The notes beneath the pieces were generated by a model. The model saw only the letters and a program-made list of their open reading frames with translations, was not told where the DNA came from and made no database searches. A stretch of DNA of 64,000 nucleotides, from the NCBI GenBank assembly GCA_000995185.1, contig LCET01000003.1, positions 6,989 through 70,988 on the forward strand, read 5' to 3'. The position numbers and the translations under genes were made by a program. Each line of letters opens with the position of its first letter. Within the stretch, counting starts at the first letter, position 1. Below are positions 3,670 to 48,925 of this stretch, piece by piece. The stretch is from Candidatus Woesebacteria bacterium GW2011_GWC1_42_9 (GTDB lineage Bacteria > Patescibacteriota > Microgenomatia > UBA8517).

Positions 3670-4525
3670 AAAATCTCCAAGAATTCTTGACAAGCTTATA
3701 ATTTTTGATAAAATTCTTTTTAGAAAACGCTCCTGGGAACTCAACTTCATATCCCCCGAAACTTTTTTTGAAATGTGTGAACCCGAGCCATTTTTTGTTT
3801 GGAAAGCGCTTGTCATAGATCCCTTCAAAATCAAATTTTTTAGCTCCTCTTTTTTTGGCCCACAATATCCCTTCCCAGAGGATTTTGTATTGCACTAGAT
3901 TTTTCCTACTTTCTTTATTTGTGAACGCAAACCAATAATATCCAATGTCTTTCGATTTTAAAAACACCGCCCCTGCCTTATTTAGTTTTTGTGTTCTAGA
4001 ACATGATAACAAGAGGCAATTGTCTTCAAATGCTTTTTTGAGGGAAGTAAGATTATTTAGACTTGGGACATAGCGAGAAAAGGGGACTGAGGCTTTCCAA
4101 TTCTTATGAAATTTCTCAATATTATTTTCTTCTATGCACTTTATTCTATGTTCTATGTTCTTTCTTAGCGAATATTTGCAATCTTTTTTTAGTTGTTGAT
4201 ATAGTTTCTTTTGAGTTAGCGTGAGATCTAGTTGCAGGGTCTTACTTGGGGAGTAAGCAGCCGTTTGCTTGAATTTATTATCCATTAACCATAATCCATT
4301 ATTTATTGATTGTGGCTCCACGACGATCCTAAATATTTTGTATTTATTGCTTAATTTTTTAAGATCATGTTCATTTAGTACTGCGTCATAGCGTTGGATT
4401 TTTACAAAATGCCCGATGATTGGAAACTTTTTTATGAAGTAATAAACCCCACTTATTTTTTCCGCCTTCCATCCCAAAGCCCGCATATATTTGGCATATT
4501 GAGGTGTTTGCCTGATATCTGTCAT
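3668..4525 (-). CDS. FemAB-family peptidoglycan interpeptide-bridge aminoacyltransferase (paralog 2)
   Basis: 285 aa with a FemX/FemA-like C-terminal pattern '...YYWFAFTNKE...ILWEGILWAKKRGAKKFDFEGI'. Tandem with the next gene. Confidence 0.55.
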   Translation of the reverse strand: MTDIRQTPQYAKYMRALGWKAEKISGVYYFIKKFPIIGHFVKIQRYDAVLNEHDLKKLSNKYKIFRIVVEPQSINNGLWLMDNKFKQTAAYSPSKTLQLDLTLTQKKLYQQLKKDCKYSLRKNIEHRIKCIEENNIEKFHKNWKASVPFSRYVPSLNNLTSLKKAFEDNCLLLSCSRTQKLNKAGAVFLKSKDIGYYWFAFTNKESRKNLVQYKILWEGILWAKKRGAKKFDFEGIYDKRFPNKKWLGFTHFKKSFGGYEVEFPGAFSKKNFIKNYKLVKNSWRF

Positions 4526-41973: not shown

Positions 41974-42001
41974 TTGACAACGTTCGTTTATGGCTTATAA
42001 T
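41974..42001 (+). promoter_or_regulatory. Strong sigma-70-type promoter for rpoBC (-35 TTGACA, 16 nt, -10 TATAAT)
   Basis: Consensus hexamers at 41974-41979 and 41996-42001. Confidence 0.6.
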
Positions 42002-42029
42002 TTGCCGTAGGCGTACTGAATGTAGGCTC

Positions 42030-42058
42030 GTCCCGCTTTCCATAGCGGGAGTTTTGTG
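42030..42058 (+). promoter_or_regulatory. Leader hairpin plus U-tract (attenuator-like) in the rpoB 5' UTR
   Basis: tcccgct-ttccat-agcggga followed by gttttgtgt, lying between the promoter and the rpoB start. Confidence 0.4.
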
Positions 42059-45000
42059 TACTTCCGAGATGGCCCAAACAAAAAGACGTAATTTTGGAAA
42101 AATAGAAAAGAAACTGCCGGAGCTGGATCTATCTCTTGTCCAAAGAGAGTCGTGGCAGTGGTTTTTAACGGAGGGAATTGCTGAAGAAATATCCCAAATT
42201 ACCCCGATAGACGATTTTACAGGAAAGAATTGGCAGTTGATCTTAGGAGAGCATGTGCTTGAAAAACCAAAGATTACTCCGGGAAGAGCTATTGAAAAAG
42301 GGCTTACTTTTGCGGCTCCATTTAAAATTAAGACCACTTTAATAAATAAAAGAACAGGAAAGAGCATTGAACAAGAAGTCTTTTTTGGCAACCTTCCTCA
42401 AATGACTTCCGTTGGAACCTTCATCATTAATGGAATAGAGCGCGTAGTAATTAATCAGTTGGTTCGTTCTCCTGGAATTTATTTCTCAGGGGAGACGGAT
42501 CGTTCTAGTGGAAGGATGCTGCATCAGGCAGAAATAAGGCCTCTTCATGGATCATGGCTTGAATTTGAGGTAAGTAAAAATGATGTTATTTCAGCAAGAA
42601 TTGATAAAAGGAGAAAAATGCCGGCGACTATTTTGCTTCGTGCAATGGGTCTTGAGTTTGATAAAGATATTAAAGATGCCTTTTCTAAGGTGGATAGTGA
42701 TCCTGATCACTCCTACATCTTAAAGACAATTGAGAAAGATCAAACAAAAAATCGAGATGAGGCACTGCTGGAAATTTATAGGAAAATGCGACCGGGGGAG
42801 CCGGCAGTTTTGGAAAATGCGCAGAATCTTTTTGATACTTTGTTCCTAAACTTTAGGCGTTATAATCTTGGAAAAGTAGGGCGCTATAAAATTAATAAAA
42901 GACTGGGGATTAGCGTTCCGAACGATAAGCAGAATTGGGTATTAACCAAGGAAGATGTTGTTGCAACGGTAGCTTACCTTATTGGTCTCCAGAATGAGGA
43001 AGGAAGGACTGATGATATTGATCATCTTTCAAATAGGCGTTTGAGGAGAGTGGGGGAGCTAGTCGCAACGCATGCTTTTAGGGCAGGGCTTTTGAGACTA
43101 GAAAGATCGGTAAAGGAAAAAATGAGCCTTATTTCCCCCGACGATATCCCACAGCCGCAGTCATTAATTAACGCTAGGCCCTTGATCGTAGCAATAAATG
43201 AATTTTTCCGATCAAATCAACTCTCCACAATATTAGATAACACTAACCCATTGTCAGAAATAGATAATTTGAGAAGGGTATCTGTCCTTGGCCCGGGTGG
43301 GATCAACCGAGAGAGGGCATCGTTTTCTATTCGTGACATTAACTCATCCCAATATGGAAGGATAGATCCCGTTCGGTCTCCGGAGGGACCAAATATTGGA
43401 TTAGTGACATATCTGGCGCTTTATGCACAGGTAAATGAATATGGATTTCTTGAGGCTCCTTACCGGGTCGTCAGGAAGGAAAAAGTGGGGGGTATTGAGA
43501 GGGCCAGAGTTACAGACGAAATGGTATATCTTGCCGCCGATGACGAAGAAGAGCAGTACATCACCCATAGCGGGATAAATATTGGCAAGACGGGATTAAT
43601 CGAAGATGAACGCGTTCCTTATCGTTATAAAGGTGCTTTTTTGGAAGGCTCTTCTAATCTGATTACATTAATAGATCTCACTCCGCGACAGGTTTTCGGT
43701 GCGAGTGCTGCTTTAATTCCATTTTTGTCACATGACGAGGGAAATCGTGCCCTGATGGGCTCAAATATGCAGTGCCAAGCAGTGCCTCTGGTGCATCCCG
43801 CTTCTCCGATAGTTGGTACTGGCATGGAGGGCGTGATAGCTGAAGCAATGGGCGGGGTGATTCGGAGTGGACACAGAGGAAAAGTGACCTATGTGGATGC
43901 TCAAAGGATAGAGGTCTCGCTCGATAAAAAAGTGGAGGCAATAGACGACCCTAATATGGAATTATCTGATAATCATAAAACAATTATTTATCATTTGTCC
44001 AAATTTAAAAAGACCGCCGCTTCGACTTCTTATAATCAAAAGGCGCGGGTGCAGGTTGGTCAGAAAGTTAACAAGGGTGATCTTCTTGCTGATGGACCAA
44101 GTTCAGATCAAGGAGAGTTGGCTTTGGGCCAAAACCTTGTGATTGCTTATACAAATTACGAAGGATATGGTTTTGAGGATGCGATACTAATTTCTGACCG
44201 TTTGGTAAAAGATGATCTTCTAAAATCGATCCATATTAAGGAATATCAAGCAGATTTGGTGGAAACCAAGCTTGGGCCGGAGGAGCTGACCCGAGATATT
44301 CCAAATGTTGCCGAGACGGAGCTTGCCAACCTAGCAGAGGATGGTATTGTCGTCATAGGTGCAGAAGTGAGTCCGAATGATATTTTGGTCGGGAAAATAG
44401 CCCCTAAAGGAGAAACAGAACTTACTAGTGAAGAAAGGCTTCTTCGGGCAATTTTTGGAGAGAAGGCGCGAGAGGTACGGGATACTTCGCTTCGTGTTCC
44501 TCATGGCGAAGGAGGAATTGTGGTTGATGTGCAAATTCTTGACAAAGAAAAAGGAGATGAGCTTGGCCCGGGAGTAATTAAAAGCATTATTGTTAAAGTG
44601 GCTCAGACGAGGAAGGTAAGCGTAGGAGACAAATTGGCTGGGCGCCATGGAAATAAGGGTGTGATTGCAAAAATCATGTCAACTTCCGATATGCCATATC
44701 TTGAGGATGGCACACCGGTTGATATTATCATTTCCCCTCTTTCTGTCTTAGCGAGGATGAATTTGGGCCAACTTTTGGAAAGCTACCTTGGCTGGGCACT
44801 CTATAACAAGGGAGAAAAGGGACAAATTCCAGTTTTTGACCAGATCAGCGAAGAAGTGATTATCAAGGAGCTTCAAAGCGTTGGGATGAGCGAGACTGGG
44901 AAAACGAGACTTTATGATGGACGGACCAGTGAACCGCTTAAGGAAGATACGGTTGTAGGAATTGGCTACATCATGAAATTAAGACACATGATTGAAGATA

Positions 45001-48000
45001 AAACCCACGCGAGATCGACTGGTCCTTATTCGCTTGTTACCCAGCAACCTCTTGGTGGGAAGGCCCAGATGGGGGGTCAGCGCCTTGGAGAGATGGAGGT
45101 CTGGGCACTAGAAGCGCATCGGGCGGCCTATACTTTGCAGGAAATGCTGACCTTGAAATCCGACGACATTGTCGGACGAGCACAAGCATTTGGGGCGATA
45201 GTGAAAGGTGAGCCTATCCCCGAGGCCAAAGTCCCGGAGAGTTTTAAGGTTCTTATTCGTGAGCTTAATTCGCTAGGGTTAGCAATAAATGTCGAGGGGA
45301 TTTTAAAAGAAGAGACTGAAGAAAAGATTGAAAATTCCACGGATCCACTGGTTAGCATGAGAGGCCTAAAGGAAATTAATGGTCTACAAATAAAATTAGC
45401 ATCTCCTGAGGAAATACGCGCCTGGTCAAGGGGTGAGATCCTCAAGCCCGAGACAATAAATTATAGAACCCTTAAGCCGGAAAAAGACGGCCTTTTTGAC
45501 GAAAGGATTTTTGGTCCGATCAAAGACTGGGAATGCTATTGCGGTAAGTATCGAAGGATCCGTTATAAGGGAGTGGTTTGCGATAAATGCGGAGTGGAAG
45601 TGGCCGAGTCGAGGGTCCGACGAGAGAGAATGGGGCACATTAGCTTGGCAGCCCCGGTTGCTCATGTTTGGTACTTTAAGGGAGCACCTTCAAAAATTTC
45701 TGTCCTTTTAGACCTTCCTCCAAGAGCGGTGGAGCAGGTAGTGTATTTTGCTCGCTATATGGTGATGAGCGTTGACGACAAGGGCCGAAAAGAAGCCTTA
45801 AAGTCGCTTAAGAGTGTTTGTGAAGAAAAACTTTTGGAGGTAAAAGAGATTTATCAGGAAAAGAAGAAAATTGTTAAAGAAGATGCGGTTGTTAGAAAAG
45901 AAAAAACTCGCGGTCGAATAAAAGATAAAGAGCAACAGGCGCTTGCCATAAGTGAAATTGATTTAGACGAAAGGAAAAAAATACAGACCTTGGCAGAGGA
46001 AGAAAGATCTACCCAGGAAAAGACTAAGGAGTTATTTAATCGGCTTGAAGATTTGGTAAAAGGGGTATTCCAGTTTGGGTTTCTTACTGAAGATGAGTAC
46101 GACAAGCTTGATTTCTATGGAGTGTCTGGGTTTGTTGATGTAAAGATGGGAGCTGAGGCGATAATGGAAGCGTTGAATAATATTGATCTCAATAAGCTTG
46201 CCAAAAATATCCGTGAAGAGATTAAGATTTTAAAGAAGGGCAAGAATAGCCAGAGATATGTAAAGCTAACCAAGAGGTTGAAAATTGTGGATGGGATGAG
46301 GCTTGCCAAAGTTGATCCTGTTTGGATGATAATTAAGGTACTCCCGGTTCTTCCCCCTGATTTAAGGCCGATGGTTCAGTTATCTGGAGGAAGATTTGCA
46401 ACAAGCGACTTAAATGATCTTTATCGCAGGGTTATCAATCGAAATAATCGCTTAAAGCATTTGATCAATTTGGGTGCTCCGGAGATTATTTTGAGGAATG
46501 AGAAGAGGATGCTTCAAGAGTCGGTGGATTCTTTGATTGATGCTTCTCAAAGAAAGGCAACCAGGAGAGGCAGAGGGAGGCAACCATTAAGATCTCTTTC
46601 AGATATGCTTAAAGGAAAACAGGGAAGATTCCGACAAAATTTGCTTGGGAAGCGGGTGGATTATTCTGGAAGGTCAGTAATAGTAGTGGGACCTGAATTA
46701 AAGCTAACTCAGTGCGGGCTTCCAAAAGAAATGGCATTGGAGATGTTTAAGCCTTTTGTTCTTCGAGAAATGATCGTGAGAGGAATAGCTCCGAATGTGA
46801 AGTCGGCAAAGAATATGCTTGAAAAACGTCCGGCTGGGGTCTTTGATATTTTGGAAGAGATTACTAAAAATCACCCCGTTTTGCTAAATCGCGCGCCAAC
46901 ATTACATAAGCTGGGCATTCAAGCCTTCTTCCCTGTATTGATTGAAGGAAATGCAATAAGGATTCACCCCGCGGTGTGTAAGGGCTTTAATGCTGACTTT
47001 GATGGAGATCAGATGGCGGTCCACGTTCCCCTGTCAGAGAAAGCCAAAAAGGAGGCAGTGGAATTGATGATGTCTGACAAAAATCTTTTGAGGCCTGCAG
47101 ATGGATCTCCAATGTCGGCTCCTGCTTCCAAAGAAATTGCCCTTGGTGTTTATTATCTGACAAGTGTGGACACAAGAATAAAGCCAAACAGTGCCGTTTT
47201 TTCTAATCCAGAAGAAGCAATCTTTGTGTATCAAATAGGGAAGATTGAATTAAGACAAATGATAACTGTGCGGGTCGGCACAGGCCTCTTGGAGACCACG
47301 GTAGGAAGATTGATCTTCAACGAGGTATTGCCGGATGCTTTGGGTTATGTTAACGAGAATATAAGTTCTGGGGTGATTACAAATCTGGTTACGAGAGCCT
47401 TCAATGAGATCGAACACGAGAGGGTAATTAAGATGATTGATAAGATTAAGGATCTGGGGTTTGTTGGGGGGACTTTGTCGGGCTTGTCATTTGGAATATC
47501 TGATGCGGCGATATTGCCTGAAAAGTCAAAAATTATAGCAAAGGCAAACAAAAGGGCCACAGAAATAGAGGAGAATTTTTCTCAAGGGTTAATTACCGCC
47601 AATGAAAAGAAAAGACTAGTAGAATCAGTGTGGATTGAGACCACTGAAGAGATCGCCGATAAAACTTGGGAGATAGTTGACCCTAATAGTTCAGTGAGAC
47701 TTGTAATTGACGCCAAAGTTGGACGTACTTCTAGAGAGCAAATAAAGCAATTGGCTGGGATGAGAGGTCTTGTAGTCGATCCTCTCGGAGAAATTGTGGA
47801 GTTACCTATAAAGTCAAATTTCAGAGAGGGGCTTTCCGTGTTTGAATATGTTAATTCTTCGAGAGGGTCAAGAAAGGGATTATCTGACACTGCTCTTAAA
47901 ACGGCAGATGCTGGGTATTTGACACGAAGGCTCGTAGATGTTGCTCACGATTTGATAATTAGGAATGAAGATTGTGACACCAAAGAGGCTTTACCAATAT

Positions 48001-48140
48001 TTAGAAGTACCAGACCGAAGGCGTTTGAAAGCCGCATTATGGGTAGGTTCGCAGGAGAAGATGTTAAAGATGATATTCGGGTGATTGTAGCTAAAAATGA
48101 GCTTATTTGGATCTCTCTGATAAGGAGCCAGTCGAAATAG
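42054..48140 (+). CDS. rpoB-rpoC: In-frame fusion of RNA polymerase beta (RpoB) and the N-terminal 900 or so aa of beta' (RpoC)
   Basis: RpoB ('[14 protein letters not shown]...' to '...LAINVEGIL') runs through a 30-aa linker directly into RpoC ('[41 protein letters not shown]...[21 protein letters not shown]...[14 protein letters not shown]'). The likely start is the ATG at about 42069. Confidence 0.85.
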
Positions 48141-48925
48141 GTACTCCCGTGGGGGTAGTTGCCGCGCAATCTATCGGCGAGCCAGGGACTCAGCTGACCA
48201 TGCGTACGAAGCACACGGGAGGGGTTATAGGGATAGATGTTACCCAAGGATTGCCTCGTGTTGAAGAATTATTGGAGGCAAGATTGCCAAAATCTTTGTC
48301 TCCAATTTCAGAGCTTCCAGGGAAAGTAAAGATCAGCGAGCAAGAAGGAGGATGGAATGTGACTGTCACTAATTCTTCTGCTAAGCCTAAAGAGACGCGG
48401 GAATATATAATCCCAAAGACTAGTAAACTTGTGGTTGAAGCAGGTCAGTTGATTGAAGCGGGAACCCAGCTTTCTTCAGGATTTTTGGATCTTCAAGAAA
48501 TTCTCCTGATAAGAGGGCTTAGGGCGGCGCAGGAATATTTGGTTGAAGGTTTGCAGTCGGTATATGAATCACAAGGGATACCAATAAACGATCGCCATTT
48601 TGAAGTTATAGTGAGGAAGATGAGCGATGAAGTAAAAGTTGTGACATCTGGCGACACCTCTCTCTTGCCCGGGGAACAACTTAGCCGAGCGAGATTTGAG
48701 GAAGAAAACGAATCAGTATTAGCACAAGGAGGAGAACCTGCTAGTGCAAGACAAGTTATCCTAGGGATTACCAAAAGGGCTTTGTTTACGGAATCCTGGC
48801 TCTCGGCAGCAAGCTTCCAGCAAACAACGGATGTTCTGGCTAAATCCGCACTCATTGGTAGAAAAGATAAGCTTATCGGCTTGAAAGAAAATGTGATTAT
48901 CGGGAGGCTTATTCCTGTAGAATAG
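48107..48925 (+). CDS. rpoC: RNA polymerase beta' C-terminal segment (trigger loop to C-terminus) in the -1 frame relative to the upstream rpoBC ORF
   Basis: '[24 protein letters not shown]...[21 protein letters not shown]...[14 protein letters not shown]'. It overlaps the upstream ORF by 34 nt. Adding one T to the TTT run at 48106-48108 would merge the two frames. Confidence 0.8.

What the first reader, a model, noticed from the sequence alone, without database searches (positions are those of the whole stretch)
45280..45420. rpoB and rpoC are fused into one 2028-codon ORF
The RpoB C-terminus (…[11 protein letters not shown]) continues through a linker of about 30 aa ([30 protein letters not shown]) straight into the RpoC N-terminus ([10 protein letters not shown]…[22 protein letters not shown]). 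No stop codon, Shine-Dalgarno or start codon lies between them. Natural beta-beta' fusions are known only in a few lineages (Helicobacter, Wolinella, Wolbachia), so a fusion in this lineage would be an independent event.
Basis: partly seen in the sequence, partly recalled or inferred. Interest (0 to 1): 0.6.

Follow-up and report, generated by a model that had tools for sequence, protein, structure and literature searches.

The report
Natural rpoB–rpoC fusion, truncated in this assembly
The two largest RNA polymerase subunits really are encoded as one gene in this Woesebacteria (CPR) lineage, as in Helicobacter and Wolbachia but arising independently, and the 2028-codon ORF is cut short by a 112-base deletion peculiar to this assembly; the intact gene has 2322 codons.

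Summary
The junction is exactly as described. One frame runs from the RpoB C-terminus (…LGLAINVEG) into the RpoC N-terminus with no stop codon. The fusion is not an error. The same organism's gene is an uninterrupted 2322-aa protein (P0126) on 12 contigs, with ENA, JGI and Logan assemblies among them. A further 66 clusters (90% identity) of 2304–2387-aa fused proteins keep the frame, although linker length varies from about 3 to 55 aa.

Unfused Woesebacteria with the same gene order have rpoB and rpoC 1 or 11 nt apart. A single-base deletion in the stop codon could therefore create the fusion. The true linker is about 13 aa ([13 protein letters not shown]), not 30. The next residues, TDPL…, match the MEPL… start of separate RpoC.

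The protein falls far below the cut-offs of both NCBIfam fused families (Helicobacter type and Wolbachia type), so it is a separate event.

The 2028-codon ORF is not the whole gene. A 112-nt deletion at 48106|48107 removes 37 codons, including three Zn-site cysteines, and shifts the frame. The last 272 codons form the next ORF (48107–48925). I could not tell whether this deletion is an assembly artefact or a real allele.

Verdict: new member of a known kind, moderate interest.

The parts
41974..42001 (+). Promoter-like site TTGACA-16 nt-TATAAT (12 of 12 consensus positions), upstream of the fused gene
   Evidence: This is a consensus match only. No comparable site lies on the + strand near the junction.
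42031..42050 (+). Leader stem-loop TCCCGCTTTCCATAGCGGGA followed by a T-rich run, between the promoter-like site and ATG 42069
   Evidence: terminator-like scan. Function not tested.
42069..45299 (+). Beta (RpoB) moiety of the fused gene, from the annotated ATG start to ...LGLAINVEG
   Evidence: Pfam Rpb2 domains 1, 2, 3, 45, 6 and 7. NCBIfam NF001616 rpoB covers aa 5-1076 at 1374 bits, cut-off 896. In the PDB, beta-chain homology ends at query aa 290-308.
45300..45338 (+). Linker [13 protein letters not shown] (13 aa, acidic/lysine-rich), which corresponds to the acidic C-terminal tail of separate RpoB in unfused relatives
   Evidence: Junction alignment of 67 fused clusters. Unfused tails are 28-61 aa. 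Linker length in the clade ranges about 3-55 aa, median 20, with 21% E and 13% K.
45339..48106 (+). Beta' (RpoC) moiety, N-terminal about 920 aa. TDPL... aligns with MEPL... at the start of separate RpoC. It contains the Zn-I motif CYCGKY...CDKCG and the catalytic NADFDGD motif.
   Evidence: NCBIfam TIGR02386 rpoC covers aa 1106-2320 of the intact protein at 1506 bits, cut-off 963.5.
48106..48107 (+). Breakpoint of a 112-nt deletion relative to the same organism's other assemblies. It removes codons for [37 protein letters not shown] plus 1 nt.
   Evidence: Nucleotide alignment of the window with L083, L084 and L085. Over the whole gene the only differences are one SNP (44224) and this gap.
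48107..48140 (+). Out-of-frame tail ([10 protein letters not shown], then stop) that ends the 2028-codon ORF
48107..48925 (+). Last 272 codons of beta' (trigger loop [13 protein letters not shown] to the C-terminus ...GRLIPVE), read as a separate ORF because of the deletion. GenBank KKS78010.1.
   Evidence: Pfam Rpb1_5 positions 67-261. Apart from the initiator residue written for its TTG start codon (Leu2051 in P0126), it is identical to P0126 aa 2051-2322.

Best explanation
This is a genuine, vertically inherited rpoB-rpoC gene fusion in a clade of Candidatus Woesebacteria (Microgenomates, CPR). One promoter and one start codon are inferred to give a single polypeptide of about 260 kDa. In it, the beta C-terminus is tethered to the beta' N-terminus by a short, flexible, acidic linker derived from the old RpoB tail.

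Shown:
- The open frame across the junction.
- Its conservation in relatives and in independent assemblies.
- The linker's homology to the RpoB tail and to the RpoC start of unfused relatives.

Inferred:
- The fusion arose by loss of the rpoB stop codon together with a small frame adjustment, from an ancestor whose two genes were 1-11 nt apart.
- The tether fixes 1:1 stoichiometry and pre-assembles the two subunits, and is otherwise near neutral, as in Helicobacter and in engineered fusions.

The window copy also carries a 112-nt frame-breaking deletion. The same organism's other assemblies lack it, so the real product is 2322 aa, not 2028.
For: - Exact ORF and domain order.
- The same-species intact protein P0126 is 2322 aa (KKQ95928.1, KKS97410.1; UniRef name 'Multifunctional fusion protein'). 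It lies on 12 contigs that include ENA, JGI and Logan assemblies. These match the window at nucleotide level apart from one SNP and the 112-nt gap.
- 66 further 90%-identity clusters are 2304-2387 aa at 46-78% identity and 98-100% coverage. All are in frame across a linker of variable length.
- Synteny is the same in fused relatives (sortase-ruvX-yceG-rpoBC-rpsL-rpsG-fusA in L082, L083) and in unfused ones (L087, L088), as far as each locus extends.
- In unfused loci the rpoB stop and rpoC ATG are 1 nt apart (L087, with rpoC in the +1 frame) or 11 nt apart (L088). RpoC there starts MEPLSDLRTLADFKSL.IRLASPE, matching [24 protein letters not shown] in the window.
- No promoter-like site, SD sequence or conserved Met lies at the junction.
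- Engineered M. tuberculosis rpoBC fusions are routinely used to make RNA polymerase for biochemical and structural work.
Against: - There is no protein-level evidence that a single polypeptide is made or stays uncleaved.
- The NJ tree of the RpoB part never recovered the 63 core fused clusters as one clade (0 of 100 bootstraps). Five unfused clusters grouped with or inside them, so the number of fusion and fission events is unresolved.
- The window's own copy is broken. A 1165-nt Logan contig from run SRR29904083 shows the same ORF geometry, so the deletion may be a real allele rather than an assembly error.
Confidence: 0.9

Rival explanations
1. The fusion is an artefact: a single-base sequencing or assembly error removed the rpoB stop codon and joined the frames in this contig.
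For: The same contig does carry a frame-breaking 112-nt deletion 2.8 kb downstream that the organism's other assemblies lack. Close unfused relatives have the two genes only 1-11 nt apart.
Against: The identical junction occurs in 12 other contigs of the same organism, with ENA, JGI and Logan assemblies among them. It also occurs in 66 further protein clusters, whose linkers vary in length but always stay in frame.
Confidence: 0.01
2. The gene is fused, but the cell still makes separate beta and beta'. This would happen by internal translation initiation near the junction (for example ATG 45357) or by proteolytic cleavage in the linker.
For: An in-frame ATG lies 6 codons into the RpoC part. 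The linker is short, charged, probably disordered and therefore accessible to proteases.
Against: No SD-like sequence lies upstream of that ATG, and the Met is not conserved: most relatives have Leu there. The residue at the position of the old initiator Met is variable and is not Met in the fused junctions shown. No promoter-like site lies at the junction. From memory rather than read here: Zakharova et al. 1998 (JBC 273:19371, cited) reported the Helicobacter fusion as a single polypeptide.
Confidence: 0.05
3. The 112-nt deletion is a real, functional allele. The polymerase would then consist of a beta-beta'N fusion (2023 aa) plus a separate 272-aa beta'C fragment. It would be split at the place where archaea split A'/A'', and it would lack three cysteines of the second beta' zinc site.
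For: - A Logan contig from another run (SRR29904083) shows the same 34-nt overlap of a truncated upstream gene with the identical 272-aa ORF.
- A JGI assembly of the same organism (L086) has a different, 40-nt, frame-breaking deletion whose right end lies 72 nt upstream of the window deletion's right end.
- The archaeal A'' profile TIGR02389 aligns its positions 39-92 to P0126 aa 2057-2110, which puts the archaeal split inside the deleted stretch.
Against: - 12 contigs of the same organism and all 66 related fused clusters are intact and keep C-x6-C-x2-C-Y-G.
- ORF2 starts at TTG with no obvious SD sequence.
- A search with ORF2 found mostly contig-edge fragments with arbitrary start points, not a conserved stand-alone protein.
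- The DNA of the Logan contig could not be read, and the origin of that run is unknown.
Confidence: 0.07

Closest known systems
Helicobacteraceae RpoBC (Helicobacter, Wolinella): NCBIfam NF007172 / PRK09603, about 2890 aa
   Same: A single ORF encodes beta followed by beta', joined through a short non-conserved linker between the beta C-terminus and the beta' N-terminus. Sister lineages keep adjacent or overlapping separate genes. The Helicobacter muridarum locus L071 served as a positive control and was scored as fused.
   Different: Different phylum. The Woesebacteria protein is about 570 aa shorter and scores 2080 bits against a cut-off of 5372. Its linker derives from a Woesebacteria-specific acidic RpoB tail. 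It is an independent origin.
Wolbachia-type RpoBC: NCBIfam NF011417 / PRK14844, about 2839 aa
   Same: A natural beta-beta' fusion in a small-genome bacterium.
   Different: 1928 bits against a cut-off of 4632. The lineage is alphaproteobacterial and unrelated to CPR.
Engineered rpoB-rpoC fusions, such as the M. tuberculosis expression plasmid pMP61. From memory, also the tethered E. coli beta-beta' of Severinov et al. 1997.
   Same: Covalent tethering of the beta C-terminus to the beta' N-terminus gives usable polymerase and prevents subunit mixing.
   Different: These use artificial linkers and are not maintained by natural selection.
Other natural fusions visible only in sequence databases: Paceibacterota (L008, P0135), the P0064-66 group, P0067, and alphaproteobacteria-like and deeply divergent clusters
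   Same: All have a single ORF spanning GEMEVWAL ... ETINYRT-type motifs with short linkers.
   Different: These are separate lineages at 42-62% identity with different linker sequences. P0064-66 and L008 lack the DPLxxL motif. I found no paper describing any of them.

Membership tests
Bacterial RNA polymerase beta subunit (RpoB; NF001616 / TIGR02013) | Full-length match above the curated cut-off, with all Rpb2 domains in order | tested here: met
   NF001616 scores 1374 bits (cut-off 896) over aa 5-1076 of P0126. Pfam Rpb2_1, 2, 3, 45, 6 and 7 are all found in the window ORF.
Bacterial RNA polymerase beta' subunit (RpoC; TIGR02386) | Full-length match above the cut-off, with the Zn-I motif, NADFDGD, the trigger loop and the Zn-II cysteines | tested here: met
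   For the intact allele P0126, TIGR02386 scores 1506 bits (cut-off 963.5) over aa 1106-2320, and the motifs are visible. In the window allele the match is split over two ORFs and three Zn-II cysteines are deleted.
Helicobacter-type fused beta/beta' (NF007172, equivalog) | Whole-protein score of at least 5372 bits | tested here: not met
   2080.5 bits.
Wolbachia-type fused beta/beta' (NF011417, equivalog) | Whole-protein score of at least 4632 bits | tested here: not met
   1927.9 bits.
Natural tethered beta-beta' polymerase (the kind, not a sequence family) | No stop, SD sequence or start between the last beta domain and the first beta' domain, in one frame | tested here: met
Natural tethered beta-beta' polymerase (the kind, not a sequence family) | The fusion is reproduced in independent assemblies and conserved in related species | tested here: met
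   12 same-species contigs and 66 further clusters with in-frame, variable-length linkers.
Natural tethered beta-beta' polymerase (the kind, not a sequence family) | A single polypeptide of about 260 kDa is present in the enzyme | not testable with these tools
   This needs proteomics or purification.
Natural tethered beta-beta' polymerase (the kind, not a sequence family) | The linker is long enough to span the gap between the beta C-terminus and the beta' N-terminus in the assembled enzyme | tested here: inconclusive
   Homology to solved chains ends at about ORF aa 1079-1097 for beta and restarts at aa 1106-1109, matching beta' residues 5-10. The AlphaFold model of the 280-aa junction had mean pLDDT 43.6 and was unusable. 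No coordinates were available to measure a distance.
Archaeal-type split of the largest subunit (A'/A'') | The C-terminal part is a separate gene with its own start, and this arrangement is conserved across relatives | tested here: not met
   Only this allele, and possibly one Logan contig, shows the split. All relatives and 12 same-species contigs are continuous. The ORF2 search gave contig-edge fragments.

The most novel reading that the evidence does not exclude
The 112-nt deletion is a real allele circulating in the aquifer population. Some Woesebacteria cells would then run an RNA polymerase whose beta and beta' are fused, while beta' is re-split at the archaeal A'/A''-equivalent site and has lost the cysteine triad of its second zinc site. 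More broadly, the boundaries of the large polymerase subunits would be unusually labile in CPR bacteria, with repeated fusions and possibly fissions in at least four CPR groups.
Probability: 0.07. Interest if true: 0.65.

Novelty: new member of a known kind. Interest (0 to 1): 0.35.

Why it matters
Fusion of rpoB and rpoC has been treated as a rare genomic change that marks Helicobacteraceae, and separately Wolbachia. Three things follow from finding it here.

- **A clade marker.** It is fixed in a large Woesebacteria clade, which gives a simple marker for subdividing this uncultivated group.
- **It is easy to evolve.** Other fused forms occur in Paceibacterota and several other lineages. The event is therefore recurrent, as expected when one base deletion can join genes 1 nt apart.
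- **Practical consequences.** Pipelines that use RpoB and RpoC as separate single-copy markers will mis-score these genomes, or will name the 2300-aa protein only 'beta'' or only 'beta'. Here they also produced two mis-annotated CDSs (KKS78009.1 and KKS78010.1) from a broken copy.

It does not change our understanding of how RNA polymerase works.

Tried and rejected
- **Genome-contig scan with a junction alignment.** I reused these loci as a named reference set and as a rough background. Of 74 loci with the motif, 2 were fused: the Helicobacter control and one Paceibacterota.
- **Metagenome-contig scans.** I searched for the deletion junction and, as a positive control, the intact junction. 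Both gave 0 hits, so that collection does not hold these contigs and the negative result says nothing.
- **AlphaFold2 on the 280-aa junction segment with 18 sequences.** Mean pLDDT was 43.6, so it was not used and no fold search was run.
- **PDB sequence search for a solved fused chain.** None appeared among the best 60 matches.
- **The listing of cluster members for taxon names of fused clusters.** Almost no names were returned.
- **Search with ORF2 for a conserved stand-alone beta'C protein.** The many proteins of 264-300 aa are mostly contig-edge fragments with gene-caller starts at assorted GTG, TTG or ATG codons. The length pile-up is about what a full-coverage requirement on contigs of about 1 kb would give. 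I rejected this as evidence for a natural split.
- **Programmed -1 frameshifting across 48107-48140.** Considered and rejected: there is no slippery heptamer, frame B has a TGA at 48098-48100, and the product would still lack 37 residues.
- **Literature searches for a CPR, Patescibacteria or Woesebacteria rpoBC fusion.** Nothing relevant was found. Lane & Darst 2010 and Zakharova 1999 are not held in the library.

Full report
**Observation.** The window holds an ORF at 42054..48140 on the + strand, 2028 aa from a TTG start. GenBank annotates it from ATG 42069 as a 2023-aa protein, KKS78009.1, of a Candidatus Woesebacteria bacterium GW2011_GWC1 genome bin. Read codon by codon, 45270-45420 gives ...[53 protein letters not shown] with no stop. 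Pfam places the RpoB domains Rpb2_1, 2, 3, 45, 6 and 7 at aa 70-1080. The RpoC domains Rpb1_1, 2 and 3, and the first 57 positions of Rpb1_5, follow from aa 1106.

**Is the fusion real?** A search of 5.8 billion proteins with the whole ORF returned the exact protein plus 66 further 90%-identity clusters. These are 2304-2387 aa long, at 46-78% identity and 98-100% coverage, and come from NCBI, JGI, ENA and Logan assemblies. Aligned, they all run in one frame from ...ELNSLGLxIxxEG through a linker into [30 protein letters not shown]. The linker is poorly conserved, rich in Glu and Lys, and about 3-55 aa long (median 20).

The 90% cluster of the window protein contains a second member, P0126. It is 2322 aa (KKQ95928.1, KKS97410.1; UniRef name 'Multifunctional fusion protein'). 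P0126 is found on 12 contigs, and the three retrieved come from ENA, JGI and Logan assemblies. At nucleotide level the window gene matches these contigs except for one SNP (44224) and one gap. A lost stop codon in a single assembly is therefore excluded.

**Origin and anatomy.** Separate RpoB proteins of other Woesebacteria are 1113-1154 aa at 73-76% identity. They carry an acidic tail of 28-61 aa after the same ELNSLGL anchor. Two such loci have the window's gene order (ruvX-yceG-rpoB-rpoC-rpsL-rpsG, with sortase also upstream in L087).
- In L087 the rpoB TAA is followed by one base and then the rpoC ATG, which lies in the +1 frame.
- In L088 the spacer is 11 nt.

Deleting one base inside that stop codon would remove the stop and join the frames in a single step. 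This mechanism is my inference. Separate RpoC begins MEPLSDLRTLADFKSLLIRLASPEDIRQWS, which aligns with [30 protein letters not shown] in the window.

Solved structures agree with these limits. Homology to beta chains ends at about ORF aa 1079-1097. Homology to beta' chains restarts at aa 1106-1109, matching beta' residues 5-10.

Nothing suggests separate expression of beta'. No promoter-like site or SD sequence lies at the junction. The one in-frame ATG there is not conserved. A perfect-consensus promoter-like site sits only upstream of the whole gene.

**How it most likely works.** By analogy, the product is a single beta-beta' polypeptide. The flexible tether enforces 1:1 stoichiometry and pre-positions the two subunits for assembly, and otherwise leaves the enzyme unchanged. 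The supporting facts are these.
- Every indel in the linker across 67 clusters preserves the frame, which argues that the joined state is maintained.
- Fused rpoBC constructs are routinely used to produce M. tuberculosis polymerase.
- A functional synthetic fusion is on record.

Protein-level proof is lacking. An AlphaFold model of the 280-aa junction segment was too poor to use, with mean pLDDT 43.6.

**Independence from the known fusions.** Papers in the library name only Helicobacter/Wolinella and Wolbachia, and call the event rare. Searches combining CPR, Patescibacteria or Woesebacteria with the fusion found nothing.

NCBIfam has two curated fused families. P0126 scores 2080 bits against a cut-off of 5372 for the Helicobacter type, and 1928 against 4632 for the Wolbachia type. 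It passes the ordinary rpoB and rpoC models over aa 5-1076 and aa 1106-2320. With unfused Woesebacteria as nearest relatives, this is a separate event.

It is not the only undescribed one. A scan of 1.84 billion representative proteins with a junction-centred query found about 20 other 50%-identity clusters longer than 2000 aa that span both subunits. By comparison with named loci these are Paceibacterota-like, alphaproteobacteria-like, or deeply divergent. P0135, for example, is 72% identical to the fused locus L008. In an arbitrary set of 74 bacterial loci, only the Helicobacter control and L008 were fused.

**How many events within the group?** I built a neighbour-joining tree of the RpoB part with 100 bootstraps.
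- The 48 main unfused clusters form a clade in 100% of replicates.
- The 63 core fused clusters group with five other unfused clusters (P0068, 69, 73, 82, 99) in 78%.
- The fused set alone was never monophyletic.

Signature columns support 'fused plus the five' against the 48 (6 columns). No column supports nesting of the five inside the fused set, and none supports all unfused clusters grouping together. A single fusion with the five as sister is compatible with the data. Fission or repeated fusion is not excluded. The more distant fused groups (P0064-66, P0067, Paceibacterota) have different junction sequences and probably fused separately.

**The ORF is not the whole gene.** The 2028-codon ORF ends in [10 protein letters not shown] followed by a stop. 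The next ORF, 48107..48925, lies in another frame and encodes 272 aa (KKS78010.1). It carries the rest of Rpb1_5, including the trigger loop [13 protein letters not shown] and the C-terminus.

All related fused proteins are about 300 aa longer. Between ...AKNELI and DLSDKEP... they contain about 37 residues ending in VRSPLTCxxxxGxCxxCYG. Alignment with the same organism's contigs shows that the window lacks exactly 112 nt between 48106 and 48107. The deletion removes three of the four cysteines that, from my memory of E. coli beta' (C814, C888, C895, C898), form the second zinc site. It also shifts the frame.

**Artefact or real allele?** I could not decide.
- For an artefact: 12 intact contigs, and the essential nature of the segment.
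- For a real allele: a 1165-nt Logan contig from run SRR29904083 has the same 34-nt overlap of a truncated gene with the identical 272-aa ORF. Its DNA could not be retrieved.
- A JGI assembly of the same organism (L086) has a different 40-nt frame-breaking deletion just upstream.

The archaeal A'/A'' split maps inside the deleted stretch, which makes a functional split conceivable. However, a search with ORF2 found no conserved stand-alone homologue, only contig-edge fragments. Two cases I inspected were an in-frame TAA at the CYG tyrosine codon in an unfused relative's locus (L090) and a contig end 14 nt upstream of the ORF2-equivalent gene (L089). Both were selected by the way I searched. 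The two metagenome pattern scans were uninformative because the positive control also failed.

**Verdict.**
- the linker is 13 aa, not 30;
- the ORF is a truncated copy of a 2322-codon gene;
- fusions are more widespread in sequence data than the literature says.

It is a new member of a known kind. It is useful as a clade marker and as a caution for annotation. It is of moderate interest, not surprising to a specialist.

Noticed in passing
window 48106|48107 (ORFs 42054..48140 and 48107..48925): A 112-nt deletion relative to 12 other contigs of the same organism breaks the fused gene into 2023-aa and 272-aa CDSs (KKS78009.1, KKS78010.1). It removes the C-x6-C-x2-C part of the beta' zinc site. 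A Logan contig from SRR29904083 shows the same ORF geometry.
   Followed up: yes
L086 about 3880-3990 (JGI 3300025012, Ga0209727_1003112); L090 7960-8001; L089 1-15: Other breaks lie close to the same spot of beta'. L086 (same organism) has a different 40-nt deletion. L090 (an unfused relative) has an in-frame TAA replacing the Tyr codon of CYG. L089 has a contig end 14 nt before the ORF2-equivalent start. The last two were found by a search biased towards such breaks.
   Followed up: partly
window 41974-42050: A perfect-consensus sigma-70-type promoter-like site (TTGACA-16 nt-TATAAT) is followed by a GC-rich stem-loop with a T-rich tail in the leader, just upstream of the fused gene's ATG. 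It might be an attenuator-like element.
   Followed up: no
window about 45800-46220 (ORF aa about 1250-1390): The beta' domain 1 carries a charged, coiled-coil-like insertion: the Pfam Rpb1_1 match spans 425 residues for a 312-position profile. phmmer aligned this region contiguously with mycobacterial beta' residues 8-279. With two other beta' chains (7l7b_D, 8i23_D) the alignment stopped at residues 146-161. This suggests an insert at the same site as the actinobacterial lineage-specific insert.
   Followed up: no
L008 (Candidatus Paceibacterota SMAG_U14927, DATJQA010000074.1), ORF of 2284 aa; also P0135, P0064-P0067: Further CPR lineages have rpoB-rpoC fused with different, very short linkers, for example ...LNIEPIYENETDHRDNFKALKISVASPDD. 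About 20 more 50%-identity clusters of fused proteins come from alphaproteobacteria-like and unplaced lineages.
   Followed up: partly
P0068, P0069, P0073, P0082, P0099 (locus L088 for P0068): Five clusters with separate rpoB group with, or inside, the fused Woesebacteria clade in NJ bootstraps (78%). Their RpoB tails share a GP(E)AMEEI-like motif with the main unfused clade. This hints at either a sister position or a secondary fission.
   Followed up: partly
window 44224: Apart from the deletion, this is the only nucleotide difference from the other assemblies across the 6.9-kb gene (A here, C elsewhere). It gives Lys instead of Thr in ...DDLL(K/T)SIHIKEY....
   Followed up: no
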